Below are positions 29,610-33,362 of a stretch of DNA of 37,196 nt, piece by piece (positions within the stretch are counted from its first letter, which is position 1; each line of letters begins with the position of its first letter). A program made the position numbers and the translations under genes. Source of the stretch: a phage. Under the pieces are notes generated by a model. The model was not told the origin of the DNA and searched no databases. It saw only the letters and a list, made by a program, of their open reading frames with translations. The stretch lies in the sequence record PZ445539.1; one strand, 5' to 3'.

Positions 29610-29921
29610 ATGGATCGCCTAATTAGAGAAATGTCGTACCTCTTTACCAAGCAGCATTTTATGGAGCTTCAGGAAACGGCCAAAAACATCGCAATCAGCC
29701 ATAGTGACTTTCCTGAGTGTTTCAGTCTTATTGCTGAGGCCATCGCTGAATTTGTTGAAGACACTCCTGATGATGAGTGGCGAGAGTATGAAAAAATCCT
29801 CATGCACTACGTTGCTATGCGTACTCTGACGCTGTGGGGTAACGGCGATAAAGTTACTGATGTCCAGTGGGCACACCCTGGCTGGTTTGGCACTGCTGAG
29901 AAGGGAGAAACCATTCAATGA
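29610..29921 (+). CDS. hypothetical protein
   Basis: 104 aa; translationally coupled between primase-helicase and Q-like gene. Confidence 0.45.
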   Translation: MDRLIREMSYLFTKQHFMELQETAKNIAISHSDFPECFSLIAEAIAEFVEDTPDDEWREYEKILMHYVAMRTLTLWGNGDKVTDVQWAHPGWFGTAEKGETIQ

Positions 29922-30700
29922 AACTGGAAGCATCACTCAAACATTTTAGTCCTCAGGGAATGCACATCAGCGATGACGTGAAGGGAACTTCTCCGGACCG
30001 CCTTACAGGAACAGATGTAATGGCGGCGATTGGCACCACCAGCAGCCGTGCGCGCTTCGGCCTGGCGGCGTTCTTCGGTAAAGCGGGAATCAGCAAAACG
30101 GATGAACAGCTCGCAGTTCAGGCGCTGGCGCGATATGCGATGGATGTCGCACCGAAGAATGTTCGCAAAGCAGCTGGTGGGCAGTTCGGATGGTGTATGC
30201 AGATGCTGGCACAATTTGCCTTTGCTGATTACTCCCGTTCGGCGGCTACCAGCGTGACATGTCACAGTTGCAGCGGTACCGGGTTTATCTCCGGGAATGA
30301 GGATGTGGTTAAACATCCTGGTATTTTCGACGCCGACGGTGCTGAAGTGGTGGCCCCGAAGATTAAAAATGAGCTGGTGAATAGGGTTTGCGGAACATGC
30401 GGAGGAAAGAAAGTGATCCTTGCCCGGTGCAGGTGTGGCGGTAAAGGCGAAGTGTTGGACCGCAAAGCGACTAAAGACCGCGGCGCACCGGTTTTCAAAA
30501 CGTGTGAACGTTGCTCTGGTAATGGCTTCTCTGCTATCTCCTCGGCGACGGTACACCGTGCCATTTTGAAGCGTCTCCCGGACCTCCATCAATCCTCATG
30601 GTCACGCAACTGGAAACCCTTCTATGAAATGCTGGTGGACACTCTGCGCCAGGGGGAACGTCATGCAGCAGTGGAATTTGAGAAGGCGACAACTTATTAA
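29918..30700 (+). CDS. putative late-gene antiterminator (Q-like), Cys-rich zinc-finger protein
   Basis: Four CxxC pairs, two as CxxCxGxG (CHSCSGTG, CERCSGNG); immediately upstream of a strong promoter-terminator pair and the late/lysis genes. Confidence 0.5.
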   Translation: MKLEASLKHFSPQGMHISDDVKGTSPDRLTGTDVMAAIGTTSSRARFGLAAFFGKAGISKTDEQLAVQALARYAMDVAPKNVRKAAGGQFGWCMQMLAQFAFADYSRSAATSVTCHSCSGTGFISGNEDVVKHPGIFDADGAEVVAPKIKNELVNRVCGTCGGKKVILARCRCGGKGEVLDRKATKDRGAPVFKTCERCSGNGFSAISSATVHRAILKRLPDLHQSSWSRNWKPFYEMLVDTLRQGERHAAVEFEKATTY

Positions 30701-30741
30701 TATGATCGGAGCAAATAGCGACACTTTTTTGCACGTTAGTG

Positions 30742-30772
30742 TTGACTTTGCATAAAACTGTCCTGTATGCTT
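30742..30772 (+). promoter_or_regulatory. candidate late promoter (PR'-like)
   Basis: TTGACT at 30742-30747 with a TATGCT-like -10 element about 18 bp downstream; located between Q-like gene and terminator. Confidence 0.45.
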
Positions 30773-30807
30773 TCCATCGTGGGATATTACGCCTACACGA
30801 CATCAAA

Positions 30808-30830
30808 CCCGCCTCGGCGCGGGTTTTTTT
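30808..30830 (+). terminator. intrinsic terminator (tR'-like) just downstream of late promoter
   Basis: CCCGC-ctcggc-GCGGG hairpin followed by TTTTTTT. Confidence 0.7.
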
Positions 30831-30973
30831 GTGCCTGCAATTCTTCGCGCCACGCTCGGCGCAATTCAACCACAGAGCCTTTCAGGGGTGAGCCATAGGG
30901 AACGGTCGGTGTGACTGTCTCTGTGGGCTGATCATTCCTGAGCGCTGGCTCACCCGCTAAAAGGAAAGTCACT

Positions 30974-31399
30974 ATGTTCGGTATCTTCAAAAAGAAAGCA
31001 CGTAAAGCCGTTACTGAAGTTAAGAAAATGGAAAACCGCGATGCGGTTGAGGCGACTGTATGGGGCGCTTACTCCATTGCGTATGCCGACGGTACCTGCG
31101 ACGCGAAAGAAATCGCCACGCTGGAAAAAACTATTTCGGCACTGCCTGCCTTCGCGCCGTTCGCCGGTGAGATCGCACAGATGAGTAGCAATATTCGTGC
31201 TCGTTACGAAGCTTCACCGCGTTCTGCTAACGCTCAGGCGCTGCGCGAACTGGCTGATGTTGCGGGTACAAATGACGCTGTTGATGTTCTTTGCCTGTGT
31301 CTCGATGTAGCTGACAACGACGGTATCGGTGAAGAAGAAGAGAAACAGCTGAAGAAAATCGCTCAGGCGCTGCAGCTTCCACTGGATCAGTACCTGTGA
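30974..31399 (+). CDS. TerB-like domain protein (first gene of late transcript)
   Basis: 141 aa; two ADG/ADNDG-containing helical repeats (IAYADGTCDAKEIATLEK ... LDVADNDGIGEEEEKQLKKIA) as I recall for the TerB fold; AAGGAAA ribosome-binding site. Confidence 0.55.
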   Translation: MFGIFKKKARKAVTEVKKMENRDAVEATVWGAYSIAYADGTCDAKEIATLEKTISALPAFAPFAGEIAQMSSNIRARYEASPRSANAQALRELADVAGTNDAVDVLCLCLDVADNDGIGEEEEKQLKKIAQALQLPLDQYL

Positions 31400-31551
31400 T
31401 CGGAAAACTGCGCTGGGCAGCCGCCGGGATTTTTTTGTTCCTGGTGGTTGCTATCGACTTCACCAGCAAAATGATGTCCATCCTCGCTGATGGCGTGCTG
31501 GTGGCCGGAGTGATTGCGCTGCTCTGGCCCCTGATTAAATCCAGTAAATAA
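31396..31551 (+). CDS. small membrane protein (51 aa), tentative
   Basis: GTG start overlapping the TerB-like stop; single hydrophobic helix; below ORF-track cutoff. Confidence 0.3.
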   Translation: MIGKLRWAAAGIFLFLVVAIDFTSKMMSILADGVLVAGVIALLWPLIKSSK

Positions 31552-31659
31552 CACTGTGCAAAAGGTCATCACGATGGCCTTTGACAGAGTGACAATAACG
31601 CCGCATAGCGGCCTTCTTTCCCCTCATATTGAGAGGATTCACAGCATTGAGGGGGACTG

Positions 31660-32046
31660 ATGTCCGATCCGATTTCCGGCACTGGCTTAGCCGGTGGTGC
31701 TCTGACGGGTGCCAGCATCTATGGCCTGCTTACAGGTACCGATTATGGTGTGGTGTTTGGCGCATTTGCAGGGGCCGTATTCTACATCGCCACAGCTGCG
31801 GATCTGAGTGCAACCCGCCGGCTGGCATATTTCATAGTGTCCTATATCGCCGGGATCTTATGCTCCGGGCTGGTAGGCTCAAAGTTATCTGCCTGGACCG
31901 GTTACAGTGATAAGCCTCTGGACGCCATCGGTGCCGTAATTATTTCTGCATTAGCCGTCAAAATCCTGACGTTCCTGAACAACCAGGATATCGGCTCGCT
32001 GGTGGCGCTGATAACGCGCCGGGGAGGTTCAGGTGGTACTAAATGA
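31660..32046 (+). CDS. holin-like membrane protein
   Basis: 128 aa with multiple Gly/Ala-rich transmembrane segments and charged C-terminus; immediately upstream of endolysin block; GAGGGGGA ribosome-binding site. Confidence 0.6.
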   Translation: MSDPISGTGLAGGALTGASIYGLLTGTDYGVVFGAFAGAVFYIATAADLSATRRLAYFIVSYIAGILCSGLVGSKLSAWTGYSDKPLDAIGAVIISALAVKILTFLNNQDIGSLVALITRRGGSGGTK

Positions 32047-32314
32047 TCCAACTGCAACATTAAACGCTCTGCTCTGCGCCGGGGTGGTGATTACCCTGAT
32101 GTTTTATCGTCGTGGTGATTCACGCCACCGTCCGTGGGTTTCGCGTTTAGCCTGGCTGATTACGGTCACGTACAGCGCTGTGCCGCTGGCCTATCTGTGC
32201 GGCATTTATCCTCATTCCTCATGGGCCACTATTGCGGCCAATATTATATTCCTTTCCGTGCTGGTGGCCGTCAGAGGCAACGTTGCACGCCTGGTTGATC
32301 ATCTGAGGCACTAA
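32033..32314 (+). CDS. second holin/antiholin-like membrane protein
   Basis: 93 aa with 2-3 hydrophobic helices; overlaps neighbours at both ends. Confidence 0.5.
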   Translation: MVLNDPTATLNALLCAGVVITLMFYRRGDSRHRPWVSRLAWLITVTYSAVPLAYLCGIYPHSSWATIAANIIFLSVLVAVRGNVARLVDHLRH

Positions 32315-32943
32315 TGAACCAATCACAATTTCAAAAGGCGGCTGGCATTAGCGCCGGGCTAGCTTCGCGCTGGTTTTCGCATATCGAGGCTGCAGTGAAG
32401 GAATTCGGCATCACGGCACCGCTCGATCAGGCTATGTTCATCGCACAGATGGGACATGAGTCAGGCGGGTATACCCGGCTGGTGGAAAGCCTGAACTATG
32501 CGGCTGAAAACTTAGTGCCGACGTTCGGCAGCCACCGCATCACTCAGCAGCAGGCCGCTGCACTTGGCAGAACGGCAACGCAACCGGCAAACCAGAAAGC
32601 GATCGCCAATCTGGTATACGGTGGTGAGTGGGGAAAAGAACACCTGGGCAATCAGGTTGCCGGTGATGGATGGAAATATCGCGGTCGCGGGCTGAAACAG
32701 ATTACCGGCCTGAGCAACTATCGCAGTTGTGGCCACGCTCTAAAACTTGACCTTGTTACCCACCCGGAGCTGCTTGAACAGGATGAATACGCCGCGCGCT
32801 CAGCTGCATGGTTCTATTCGTCTCGCGGTTGCCTGCTTCATTCCGGCGACGTGGAGCGCGTGACACTTCTTATCAATGGTGGCCGTAACGGGTTGGATAA
32901 ACGCCGCGCGCTGTTTAACCTGGCGAAATCTGTGCTGGTGTGA
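32314..32943 (+). CDS. endolysin, glycoside hydrolase family 19 (chitinase-like lysozyme)
   Basis: 209 aa; motifs FIAQMGHESGG, GRGLKQITGLSNY, AARSAAWFY characteristic of GH19 phage endolysins (from memory). Confidence 0.85.
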   Translation: MNQSQFQKAAGISAGLASRWFSHIEAAVKEFGITAPLDQAMFIAQMGHESGGYTRLVESLNYAAENLVPTFGSHRITQQQAAALGRTATQPANQKAIANLVYGGEWGKEHLGNQVAGDGWKYRGRGLKQITGLSNYRSCGHALKLDLVTHPELLEQDEYAARSAAWFYSSRGCLLHSGDVERVTLLINGGRNGLDKRRALFNLAKSVLV

Positions 32944-32950
32944 GGTCACT

Positions 32951-33220
32951 ATGGGCTTTGAAACTTTAATTGGTATCGCTGCAGCAGTCATTGCTGCCAT
33001 CGCTGGTGCGTTCGGCCTGGGCCATATTCGCGGCACCAGCAAAGCGGAAGCGAAAGCCGACCAGCAGCGCACCGAAGATAACGCAGCGGCAACTGTCGCA
33101 GCAGCAGAACGCCGGGTAGAGACAACGAAAGAGGCCAGCAATGTACAGCAGACTGTTAACCATATGCCTGGCGATGATGTTGATCGTGAGCTGCGCACAA
33201 ACTGGACCCGTAAAGGTTGA
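32951..33220 (+). CDS. i-spanin (Rz-like)
   Basis: 89 aa from ATG 32951; N-terminal transmembrane helix then charged region; directly after endolysin. Confidence 0.6.
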   Translation: MGFETLIGIAAAVIAAIAGAFGLGHIRGTSKAEAKADQQRTEDNAAATVAAAERRVETTKEASNVQQTVNHMPGDDVDRELRTNWTRKG

Positions 33221-33362
33221 GGTTGTGGATACGGCTTGCGACTGGGTTAAACCCATCTACGGAACGGATCACGACTGGGATGTGCTGGACCGCCAGACGA
33301 AGAAAAACATCTTGGCGCATAACAAAGCGTGGCAGGCTAATTGCCACGCAACAACGGATTAA
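33141..33362 (+). CDS. o-spanin (Rz1-like outer-membrane lipoprotein), overlapping i-spanin in another frame
   Basis: Signal peptide with lipobox LIVSC; begins inside the Rz-like gene in a different frame and extends past it. Confidence 0.6.
   Translation: MYSRLLTICLAMMLIVSCAQTGPVKVEVVDTACDWVKPIYGTDHDWDVLDRQTKKNILAHNKAWQANCHATTD

What the first reader, a model, noticed from the sequence alone, without database searches (positions are those of the whole stretch)
30886..31551. TerB-like protein and a small membrane peptide as the first late genes
The first ORF after the late promoter and terminator pair is not the holin but a 141-aa protein with two ADG-containing helical repeats of the TerB type, followed by an overlapping 51-codon single-helix membrane ORF, and only then the holin. 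TerB-domain proteins are associated with stress and phage-resistance contexts, so a TerB-like protein co-expressed with lysis genes is unusual and may regulate lysis timing or act in exclusion.
Basis: partly seen in the sequence, partly recalled or inferred. Interest (0 to 1): 0.55.

Follow-up and report, generated by a model that had tools for sequence, protein, structure and literature searches.

The report
Phage P1-type tciA–tciB cassette
The two small genes are a known but never functionally tested phage cassette, a TerB-fold protein plus a 51-residue membrane peptide; it is common in E. coli prophages at this spot, and the only new feature is the conserved folded RNA leader in front of it.

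Summary
After the Q antiterminator gene, a late promoter-like site and a terminator comes a 141-aa ORF (30974-31399). A 51-codon ORF (31396-31551) overlaps it by GTGA, and the holins follow.

The 141-aa protein is a genuine TerB homologue by Pfam score, by a profile match to solved KP-TerB (E 2e-13) and by fold. The 51-aa ORF belongs to DUF3927 and is under purifying selection.

The arrangement is not unusual. The window is Escherichia phage LMessi, where both genes are already annotated. The pair is the tciA-tciB cassette of phage P1 (84% and about 47% identity). Its leader lies upstream of a TerB-family gene in 1247 of 5426 complete E. coli genomes, and the one such prophage opened (EDL933) has it in the same Q-to-holin slot.

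P1/P7, N4-like and jumbo phages carry the pair away from lysis genes, and it is non-essential in P1. That argues against a dedicated lysis clock.

Most likely it is a membrane-tethered TerB module made only during lytic growth. Its function (envelope protection or exclusion) is inferred, not shown.

One new item: a conserved 127-nt leader (30847-30973) with covarying, mutually crossing helices and an anti-SD/SD pairing. It matches no Rfam family.

The parts
29918..30700 (+). Q-type antiterminator gene (context: it defines the start of the late operon)
   Evidence: Pfam Antiterm PF03589, 5.3e-53. phrog_127 anti-termination protein Q-like, 3e-101. Annotated as such in PP925823.1.
30742..30771 (+). 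Late promoter-like site (pR'-like), TTGACT-18-TATGCT
   Evidence: Consensus scan, 9 of 12 matches. The position, directly after Q and before a terminator, is as in lambdoid phages. Function is inferred.
30805..30832 (+). Intrinsic terminator (tR'-like): stem-loop AAACCCGCCTCGGCGCGGGTTT followed by a T-run
   Evidence: Terminator scan: 8 pairs, 5 of them G-C, loop of 6. Sequence read.
30847..30973 (+). Conserved structured 5' leader of tciA. Helix coordinates: P1 30847-51/30858-62; a 30870-77/30919-26; anti-SD 30878-82 with SD 30960-64; b 30886-94/30947-55; c 30899-902/30935-38; d 30904-07/30930-33; e 30911-15/30968-72.
   Evidence: - About 83% nucleotide identity to copies in 1247 of 5426 E. 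coli genomes, although the TerB proteins there are only 43% identical.
- 1-nt indels rule out a coding sequence.
- On 16 diverse leaders, 93.5% of cells are paired against 38-45% when the partner is slid. Sixteen pairs show changes on both sides against 3.0 +/- 1.4 in shuffles, reached by 0 of 500 shuffles.
- Compensated variants were checked by hand.
- Anti-SD/SD pairing.
- No Rfam match at E<5.
30974..31399 (+). tciA: 141-aa cytoplasmic TerB-fold protein with a conserved basic N-terminal tail (MFGIFKKKARKAVTEVKK)
   Evidence: - Pfam TerB, 29.1 bits against a 24.4 cut-off; phrog_632, 3e-64.
- 84% identical to P1 TciA.
- Family profile hits KP-TerB 2JXU at E 1.9e-13 over residues 15-137.
- AF2 model: pLDDT 88, six helices.
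31396..31551 (+). tciB: 51-aa hydrophobic peptide (DUF3927), translationally coupled to tciA through a GTGA overlap
   Evidence: - Pfam DUF3927, 2.1e-15; phrog_1470 'TciB-like', 9e-23.
- 45-47% identical to P1 TciB.
- D21 is invariant; F22, S24, S28, D32 and G33 are conserved in at least 90% of the A6 alignment.
- dN/dS 0.14-0.67.
- The 4-nt overlap is kept in 77 of 79 leader-selected pairs.
- TciB follows TciA in 80 of 80 IMG/VR loci.
- AF2: one helix, residues 2-48, pLDDT 92.6.
31660..33362 (+). Downstream lysis cassette (context): holin PF16931, holin PF05449, GH19 endolysin, spanins
   Evidence: Pfam and PHROG hits; annotation.

Best explanation
**Identity (near certain, about 0.97).** The locus is the tciA-tciB accessory cassette first named in phage P1. 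Here it is inserted between the tR'-like terminator and the holin genes of the temperate lambdoid Escherichia phage LMessi.

**How it most likely works (steps marked shown or inferred).**

1. Transcription reaches the cassette only when Q-modified RNA polymerase reads through the terminator, so the genes are made in lytic growth and not in the lysogen. This is inferred from the Q gene, the promoter and terminator, and the absence of any promoter-like site in the leader.
2. The 127-nt leader folds into alternative or crossing helices, one of which pairs an anti-SD (CCUUU) with the SD (AAAGG). This points to tight translational control. The structure is shown by covariation; its regulatory effect is inferred.
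3. tciB is translated by coupling to tciA through the GTGA overlap. The conservation of the overlap is shown; coupling is inferred.
4. TciB inserts into the inner membrane. TciA, a soluble TerB-fold protein with two acidic ADG...E motifs and a conserved basic N-terminal tail, is held at the cytoplasmic face of the membrane. This is inferred. It mirrors DjlA, which per Pfam's family description and my own knowledge has a transmembrane helix followed by a TerB-like domain (not checked here). It also mirrors the transmembrane TerB protein of the Bunzi defence system and the reported TerB-TerC interaction of ter operons.
5. There the module conditions the envelope of the infected cell. It protects it against superinfecting phages, pore-forming colicins or membrane stress until the phage's own holin fires. 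This is speculative (about 0.35) and follows the phage-inhibition and colicin-resistance phenotypes of ter clusters.

The cassette is dispensable for plaque formation and is not by itself a tellurite-resistance determinant.
For: **Identity**
- The window is 100% identical to PP925823.1, where the genes are annotated 'tellurite resistance protein' and 'TciB-like protein'.
- 84% identity to P1 TciA and about 47% to P1 TciB.
- Pfam and PHROG hits.
- Profile match to KP-TerB 2JXU, E 1.9e-13.
- TerB fold.

**The pair is a unit**
- 80 of 80 IMG/VR TciA loci have TciB next to it.
- 79 of 101 leader-bearing loci keep both ORFs, with a 4-nt or 1-nt overlap.
- The overlap is also kept in P1, JLK-2012 and EDL933.
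- The Erwinia jumbo phage ChrisDB has a 59-aa peptide after its TerB that ends in VWPLIK, a motif matching TciB.

**Expression in lytic growth only**
- No promoter-like site lies between 30830 and 30973.
- In P1 and P7 the pair lies downstream of the C1-operator-controlled ban promoters.
- The pair is also present in virulent N4-like and jumbo phages.

**Membrane link of TerB**
- TerB was reported as a TerC interaction partner (PMC11003894, citing Turkovicova 2016).
- TerB is reported to be membrane-associated, and the Bunzi TerB protein has transmembrane helices.
- The Vibrio N4-like phage BUCT194 carries TerB-TerC-TerB.

**Exclusion idea.** It has been proposed for phage Ter genes (PMC7824862).

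**Leader.** Structure.
Against: - No experiment on any TciA or TciB exists in the literature searched.
- A TciA-TciB contact was not tested. The tools report no interface metrics for a complex.
- The only 'fusion' proteins (P0202, P0293) look like 1-nt indels at the overlap.
- TciB occurs without TerB in phages 434 and 2B8. TerB occurs without an annotated TciB-like ORF in PMBT3, phage AF and BUCT194. The partnership is therefore not obligatory.
- Neither protein matches any PADLOC defence model.
- The ter phenotypes of phage inhibition and colicin resistance were mapped to whole ter clusters, not to TerB alone. In Yersinia pestis, tellurite resistance needs terCDE, and terZAB gives filamentation.
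- In lambdoid phages the cassette is always immediately upstream of the holins. This could still reflect a lysis-related role.
Confidence: 0.45

Rival explanations
1. Lysis-timing regulator. TciA and TciB would modulate holin triggering. They could do so by stabilising the membrane potential or by acting as an antiholin-like partner of the two downstream holins.
For: - In lambdoid relatives the cassette sits immediately upstream of the holin genes in most of the 80 IMG/VR loci, with three different antiterminator families and at least two holin types.
- The same order is seen in the record named Actinobacillus phage pPE4.
- TciB is a small membrane peptide co-transcribed with the holins.
Against: - P1 and P7 carry the pair upstream of ban, far from lydA/lyz.
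- N4-like phages carry it among early genes, and jumbo phages among tRNA genes.
- In EDL933 and JLK-2012 a 1.85-kb esterase gene separates it from the holin.
- TciB matches no holin or antiholin family in Pfam or PHROGs.
- Relatives L088 and L095 have lost the cassette but keep the same flanks.
Confidence: 0.12
2. Cell-division inhibitor. The pair would cause filamentation of the infected cell, as Kil- or DicB-type phage functions do. This is one of the three meanings behind the name 'tci'.
For: - terZAB, but not terCDE, causes filamentation in Y. pestis and in E. coli (PMC4633105).
- The P1 annotation lists 'inhibition of cell division (by homology)'.
- Tight translational control by the leader would suit a toxic product.
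Against: - The filamentation was never assigned to TerB alone. Lethality mapped to terZA.
- No similarity to known division inhibitors was found.
Confidence: 0.12
3. Metal-handling accessory. TciA would bind a metal through its acidic ADG...E motifs. It would act on TerC-family or other transporters to adjust Mn, Zn or Ca during phage growth.
For: - The acidic residues D39, E46, D116 and E122 are invariant or nearly so.
- A Vibrio phage encodes TerB-TerC-TerB.
- terC contributes to tellurite and zinc resistance in Klebsiella, according to the title of PMC12054061.
- TerB and TerD are classed as ligand-binding domains.
Against: - The window has no TerC gene.
- No metal binding has been demonstrated.
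- TciB is far too small to be a transporter.
Confidence: 0.1
4. Counter-defence. The phage TerB would act as a decoy or inhibitor of host membrane-surveillance systems that use TerB domains (Bunzi, Shango, Ter clusters).
For: - TerB domains occur in validated defence systems.
- Phages often carry homologues of defence components.
- Expression only in lytic growth fits an anti-defence role.
Against: - No PADLOC match even at E<=1.
- No case is known of a TerB anti-defence protein.
- The cassette is carried by phages of hosts that mostly lack such systems.
Confidence: 0.08
5. Lysogenic-conversion gene that gives the host tellurite resistance, as the product name suggests.
For: The database product name 'tellurite resistance protein'.
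Against: - No other ter gene is present.
- Resistance needs terCDE.
- Authors of phage genome papers reached the same doubt (PMC8421299 and PMC3728262).
- The cassette has no promoter of its own and lies behind a terminator.
Confidence: 0.03

Closest known systems
[quoted passage not shown]
   Same: TciA is 84% identical and of the same length. TciB belongs to the same DUF3927 family (45-47% identity). The order is the same, and the stop and start codons overlap in both.
   Different: - The window has no tciC. Its 34-aa ORF downstream is unrelated and not hydrophobic.
- P1 places the genes downstream of the C1-controlled ban promoters, flanked by tRNA genes. Here they lie in the Q-dependent late operon, and the window has no tRNA gene.
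- P1 lacks the structured leader.
TerB of ter operons (terZABCDEF; solved structure KP-TerB, PDB 2JXU)
   Same: Full-length homology (E 1.9e-13). The same all-alpha fold class. Two acidic ADG...E motifs.
   Different: - It stands alone, with no terZ, A, C, D or E genes.
- It has its own conserved N-terminal tail, MFGIFKKK.
- It is paired with a 51-aa peptide that ter operons lack.
- It is carried by phages and expressed in lytic growth.
Membrane-tethered TerB domains: the DjlA N-terminal region, and the TerB protein of the Bunzi defence system
   Same: A TerB-type domain at the cytoplasmic face of the inner membrane. This is the architecture inferred for TciA plus TciB. Bunzi. DjlA: from Pfam's family description and my own knowledge, not checked here.
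   Different: In those proteins the membrane helix and the TerB domain are one polypeptide with further effector domains. Here they are two separate gene products with no effector domain. There is no PADLOC match.
Cargo genes in the Q-to-holin slot of lambdoid phages (stxAB, tRNA genes, the nanS-p/SASA esterase)
   Same: The same insertion slot behind the late terminator. In EDL933 and JLK-2012 the pair sits between the tRNA genes and the esterase gene, upstream of the holin. That stxAB occupies this slot in Stx phages is my own knowledge.
   Different: It is not a toxin or a known virulence factor. Unlike a classical moron, it has no promoter or terminator of its own.

Membership tests
TerB family (Pfam PF05099 / COG3793) | Score above Pfam's curated threshold | tested here: met
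   29.1 bits against a cut-off of 24.4, in two stretches.
TerB family (Pfam PF05099 / COG3793) | Full-length sequence homology to an experimentally solved TerB | tested here: met
   The profile of 30 TciA relatives hits 2JXU (KP-TerB) at E 1.9e-13, residues 15-137 against 21-144. The single sequence alone found nothing.
TerB family (Pfam PF05099 / COG3793) | All-alpha TerB-type fold | tested here: met
TerB family (Pfam PF05099 / COG3793) | Two conserved acidic A-D-G...E motifs | tested here: met
   Across homologues of 33-99% identity, G117 is invariant and D39, G40, E46, D116 and E122 are conserved in at least 90%. All except D116 are invariant in the 11-phage alignment.
ter operon / tellurite-resistance determinant | Presence of the other ter genes (terC, D, E and others) that confer resistance | tested here: not met
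   No ter gene other than the TerB homologue appears among the 62 annotated genes or in the ORFs scanned.
ter operon / tellurite-resistance determinant | Raised tellurite MIC | not testable with these tools
   Needs an MIC assay on lysogens.
P1 tciAB(C) cassette | TciA orthologue followed directly by a DUF3927 peptide gene, with overlapping stop and start codons | tested here: met
   84% and 45-47% identity. GTGA overlap at 31396-31399 against TGATG in P1.
P1 tciAB(C) cassette | Third gene tciC (a 35-aa single transmembrane peptide) | tested here: not met
   P1 TciC is MGFWDFADKHPIVLVVIAGIVVGGIAGVIEALRKQ. The window ORF 31556-31660 is not hydrophobic and not similar, and it is not conserved.
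DUF3927 (Pfam PF13064) | Score above the curated threshold, and the family motif D-F-T-S ... D-G ... W-P | tested here: met
   56.9 bits against a cut-off of 25. In the 25-sequence alignment A6, D21 is invariant and F22, S24, S28, D32 and G33 are conserved in at least 90%. W44-P45 is visible in most rows.
Holin / antiholin families | Match to a holin or antiholin profile | tested here: not met
   TciB matches only DUF3927 and phrog_1470. The two true holins lie downstream.
Known anti-phage defence systems (PADLOC-DB v2) | Match to any defence-protein model | tested here: not met
   No family at E<=1 for TciA, TciB or the 34-aa ORF.
Classical moron (autonomous cargo gene expressed in the lysogen) | Its own promoter upstream and its own terminator downstream | tested here: not met
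   No promoter-like site lies between the terminator and the ATG. Downstream there is only a weak 5-bp hairpin with no proper T-run. A consensus scan is not proof of absence.
Any described RNA family (Rfam 15), tested for the leader | Covariance-model match | tested here: not met
   No hit overlapping more than the first 16 nt of the leader (30847-30973), on either strand, at E<=5. The only hits nearby are sub-threshold terminator-like matches at 30737-30862.

The most novel reading that the evidence does not exclude
The 127-nt leader would be an undescribed riboregulator, a ligand-, protein- or kinetics-driven switch between a long anti-SD/SD hairpin and an a-a'/e-e' pseudoknot. It would gate production of a minimal two-protein TerB membrane module, which in turn would protect or time the infected cell's envelope. 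If so, this small cassette is found from E. coli prophages to an Erwinia jumbo phage. It would be the simplest available system for finding out what TerB domains sense and do.
Probability: 0.2. Interest if true: 0.7.

Novelty: already known. Interest (0 to 1): 0.3.

Why it matters
As a finding about the genes it adds nothing new. The cassette was named in P1, has its own PHROG and Pfam families, and is annotated in this very genome.

It still matters for three reasons.

- No paper found in the searches here reports a biochemical activity for TerB, and one says its function remains unknown. TerB domains also turn up in anti-phage defence systems. A two-gene, non-essential phage version is a convenient handle on that question.
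- The cassette is very common. Its leader is in about a quarter of complete E. coli genomes, with up to six copies per genome, including O157:H7 prophages.
- Its conserved, covarying leader RNA is in no Rfam family and suggests tight post-transcriptional control.

Tried and rejected
- **Sequence search of the PDB with TciA alone.** It gave only weak centrin (EF-hand) hits at E of about 0.07. I treat these as composition and repeat noise, because the family profile hits TerB cleanly.
- **NCBIfam and PADLOC.** Nothing.
- **TerB-DUF3927 fusions as evidence of interaction.**
  - 179 close TciB relatives and 48 cluster representatives from 1.84 billion proteins are all stand-alone peptides.
  - The 196-aa P0202 and the 197-aa P0293 are TerB+DUF3927. 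Each can be explained by a 1-nt indel at the overlap.
  - P0246 and P0285 look like chimeric or frameshifted gene calls.
  - None of these is used as evidence.
- **Is the leader a Pas sRNA?** PMC13192938 places PasA and PasC within 10 kb of TerB genes. But PasA, PasC and PasD end in terminators and lie next to the holin operon or the esterase gene. The leader has no terminator. Rejected, although I had no Pas sequences for a direct comparison.
- **Is the leader coding?** A 65-aa ORF on the minus strand (30793-30990) spans it, but 1-nt indels among variants rule out a coding sequence.
- **Is the 34-aa ORF 31556-31660 a tciC equivalent or a holin-coupled upstream ORF?** No. It is not hydrophobic, and 23 relatives with the same holin start lack the overlap.
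- **The search for related loci with the TciB alignment.** It failed because no stretch was conserved enough.
- **Literature search for leader sequence strings.** Only unrelated papers.
- **A plain nested consensus fold of four leaders.** It showed too little variation. More divergent copies from IMG/VR and from species-representative genomes were needed.
Full report
**What is there.** The window is Escherichia phage LMessi (PP925823.1), in reverse complement and 100% identical over the query. It is a temperate lambdoid siphovirus with an integrase, CI and CII regulators and a Q gene.

Around the finding the + strand reads as follows.

- Q-type antiterminator gene, 29918-30700 (Pfam Antiterm, 5e-53).
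- A sigma-70-like site, TTGACT-18-TATGCT, at 30742-30771.
- An intrinsic terminator, stem 30805-30826, followed by a T-run.
- A 127-nt untranslated leader, 30847-30973.
- A 141-aa ORF, 30974-31399.
- A 51-codon ORF, 31396-31551, starting at a GTG that overlaps the preceding TGA.
- A 108-nt spacer.
- Two holin genes (PF16931 and PF05449), a GH19 endolysin and spanins.

The one coordinate error is that 30886 lies in the leader, not in an ORF.

**What the two proteins are.** The 141-aa protein passes Pfam's TerB threshold (29.1 bits against 24.4) and matches phrog_632 end to end (3e-64).

- Its sequence alone finds no solved structure.
- A profile of 30 relatives spanning 33-99% identity hits KP-TerB (2JXU) at E 1.9e-13 over almost the full length.
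- Both acidic A-D-G...E motifs and a basic N-terminal tail (MFGIFKKK...KK) are conserved across the family.

The 51-aa ORF belongs to DUF3927 (2e-15) and to phrog_1470, 'TciB-like'.

- The family is tiny. It has 48 clusters at 50% identity among 1.84 billion representatives, almost all stand-alone peptides of 40-87 aa.
- D21 is invariant, and F22, S24, S28, D32 and G33 are conserved in at least 90% of sequences. W44-P45 is visible in most rows.
- dN/dS between eight phages is 0.14-0.67, with synonymous sites near saturation. It is a real gene.
- AlphaFold2 draws one helix over residues 2-48 (pLDDT 92.6). Hydropathy shows two maxima on either side of the D-F-T-S motif. Whether it is one long helix or a hairpin remains open.

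**It is a known and common cassette.**

- The GenBank record already calls the genes 'tellurite resistance protein' and 'TciB-like protein'. RefSeq calls their E. coli copies 'TerB family protein' and 'DUF3927 family protein'.
- The protein is 84% identical to P1 TciA, and the peptide is 45-47% identical to P1 TciB. [quoted passage not shown]
- TciA-like genes occur in 129 phage records and TciB-like genes in 56.
- All 80 closest IMG/VR loci carry TciB directly after TciA. The dominant order is antiterminator (three different families) > TciA > TciB > holin(s).
- In O157:H7 EDL933 and in phage JLK-2012 the order is antiterminator, tRNA genes, leader, TerB, DUF3927, SASA esterase, holin. From my own knowledge, that is the slot stxAB occupies in Stx phages.

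'Unusual' is therefore not supported.

**What the contexts say about function.**

- In P1 and P7 the pair, plus a third 35-aa membrane peptide TciC, lies between tRNA genes. It is downstream of the C1-operator-controlled ban promoters and upstream of ban.
- In the N4-like Salmonella phage FSL SP-076 it lies among early or replication genes.
- In Erwinia jumbo phages it lies among tRNA genes, and TerB is followed by a 59-aa peptide ending in VWPLIK, a distant TciB.
- A Vibrio N4-like phage has TerB-TerC-TerB.
- Phages 434 and 2B8 have TciB without TerB.
- P1 tciA, tciB and tciC scored non-essential in a genome-wide CRISPRi screen (PMC10695390).

What these have in common is expression during lytic growth, not proximity to lysis genes. 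In the window no promoter-like site lies between the terminator and the ATG, so the genes should be silent in the lysogen. This weakens both the lysis-clock idea and the lysogenic-conversion reading.

Tellurite resistance as such is unlikely.

- No other ter gene is present.
- In Y. pestis, resistance needs terCDE, while terZAB gives filamentation (PMC4633105).
- Authors of phage genome papers voiced the same doubt.

**Most likely mechanism.** TerB is reported to be associated with the inner membrane and to be an interaction partner of TerC. TerB domains fused to membrane helices occur in the Bunzi defence system, and in DjlA according to Pfam's family description and my own knowledge. Ter clusters confer phage inhibition and colicin resistance, and phage-borne Ter genes have been proposed to act against superinfecting phages (PMC7824862).

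I therefore read TciB as the membrane partner, made by translational coupling, of a cytoplasmic TerB sensor or adaptor. The module would condition the envelope of the infected cell.

- Shown: homology, fold, gene linkage, the conserved overlap, and purifying selection.
- Inferred: the physical contact, the membrane location and the protective effect.
- Rivals: lysis timing, division inhibition, metal handling and counter-defence. They are scored separately. None is excluded by computation.

**The leader.** Similarity searches with 30830-30990 found copies of the leader at about 83% identity in 1247 of 5426 complete E. coli genomes. There are 2659 copies, up to six per genome, and nearly all listed ones lie just upstream of a TerB-family gene. 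The TerB proteins there are only 43% identical to the window's. Single-base indels exclude a coding sequence.

More divergent copies came from IMG/VR, from the Erwinia jumbo phage ChrisDB and from species-representative genomes of Pantoea, Citrobacter, Franconibacter and Pseudescherichia. They show compensatory changes.

- Helix a occurs as CCACAGAG/CUCUGUGG, CCACAA/UUGUGG, CCGCAGA/UCUGCGG and CCGUAGAG/CUCUACGG.
- Helix e occurs as GUGAC/GUCAC and UUACGUC/GACGUAA.
- Helices P1, c and d also vary in a compensated way.

On 16 diverse leaders, 93.5% of cells pair, against 38-45% when the partner is slid. Sixteen pairs show changes on both sides, against 3.0 +/- 1.4 in shuffles, a value reached by 0 of 500 shuffles. 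Some of the changes counted in helix b come from a register shift in one row.

The strands come in the order a, anti-SD, b, c, d, e, a', d', c', b', SD, e'.

- Helices b, c and d and the CCUUU/AAAGG anti-SD/SD pairing form one long hairpin. This is the minimum-free-energy fold, at -53.9 kcal/mol.
- Helices a and e cross that hairpin and cross each other.
- Enforcing helix a costs 6.6 kcal/mol, before counting the -4.8 kcal/mol of helix e.
- Only 3 nt separate a' from d', so I think helix a and the long hairpin are mutually exclusive.

This looks like a two-state translational switch. What flips it is unknown. No Rfam family matches, and no paper in the library contains the sequence.

The leader is not tied absolutely to terB.

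- One Pseudescherichia copy precedes an unrelated 200-aa ORF whose N-terminus resembles a signal peptide.
- Two relatives keep its 5' part after losing the cassette between GA microhomologies at about 30941 and 31574.
- P1 and several other tciA lineages lack it.

**Verdict.** The genes are an already annotated member of the P1-type tciAB cassette, whose function remains unknown. The one feature that is not already described, as far as these tools can tell, is the structured leader.

Noticed in passing
window 30847-30973: A conserved structured leader RNA upstream of tciA. It has covarying, mutually crossing helices and an anti-SD/SD pairing. It is found in 23% of complete E. coli genomes and in an Erwinia jumbo phage, and it matches no Rfam family.
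   Followed up: yes
IMG/VR loci such as L103, L025, L104 and L020 (JLK-2012-type tciA), codons 6-8: 16 of 101 leader-bearing loci have a run of 7 A's instead of 6 (GGTAAAAAAAGCC). This truncates TerB after 16 aa (MFGIFGKKSPQSGNGN). It could be pseudogenes, sequencing error, or slippage-prone phase variation.
   Followed up: no
L088:8022 and L095:3036, compared with window ~30941 and ~31574: Two relatives keep the 5' part of the leader joined directly to the sequence that follows tciB in the window (TGGCCTTTGACAGAGTGA). This gives boundaries for a cassette of about 633 bp, with a GA microhomology at each end.
   Followed up: partly
L222:6021-6095 (Pseudescherichia MAG): A complete leader, including the GTCAC helix strand and the ATG, precedes a 200-aa ORF with a signal-peptide-like N-terminus instead of terB. 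Its first 60 residues have no Pfam match. The leader can therefore serve other cargo genes.
   Followed up: partly
window 30739-30891 and 31556-31660: Two CDS annotated in PP925823.1 look spurious. The 50-aa CDS0010 spans the late promoter and the terminator. The 34-aa CDS0007 overlaps the holin start, but 23 relatives with the same holin start lack that overlap.
   Followed up: partly
L013 (Vibrio phage BUCT194), 1-1926: An N4-like Vibrio phage encodes TerB, a TerC/Alx family membrane protein, and a second TerB in a row. This is a fuller Ter module in a virulent phage.
   Followed up: no
L003, L014, L004, L007, L010 compared with the window: In P1, P7, JLK-2012, the EDL933 prophage and the jumbo phage ChrisDB, the cassette is flanked by tRNA genes. 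The window has no tRNA gene at all (ARAGORN).
   Followed up: partly
L005 (phage 434), 2112-3344: Phage 434 (and 2B8) has TciB without TerB. It is preceded by a 247-aa multi-pass membrane protein with no Pfam match, and followed by another small ORF annotated as a membrane protein.
   Followed up: no
L217 (Kocuria sabuli, 700-bp scaffold) and L015 (Actinobacillus phage vB_Apl-pPE4): An enterobacterial-type leader plus tciA appears on a 700-bp scaffold of an actinobacterial assembly, which is probably contamination. The leader plus the full tciAB cassette appears in a phage record assigned to Actinobacillus.
   Followed up: no
window 31660-32314: Two adjacent, overlapping holin-family genes of different families (PF16931, 128 aa; PF05449, 93 aa) precede the GH19 endolysin. 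They may be a holin/antiholin pair.
   Followed up: no
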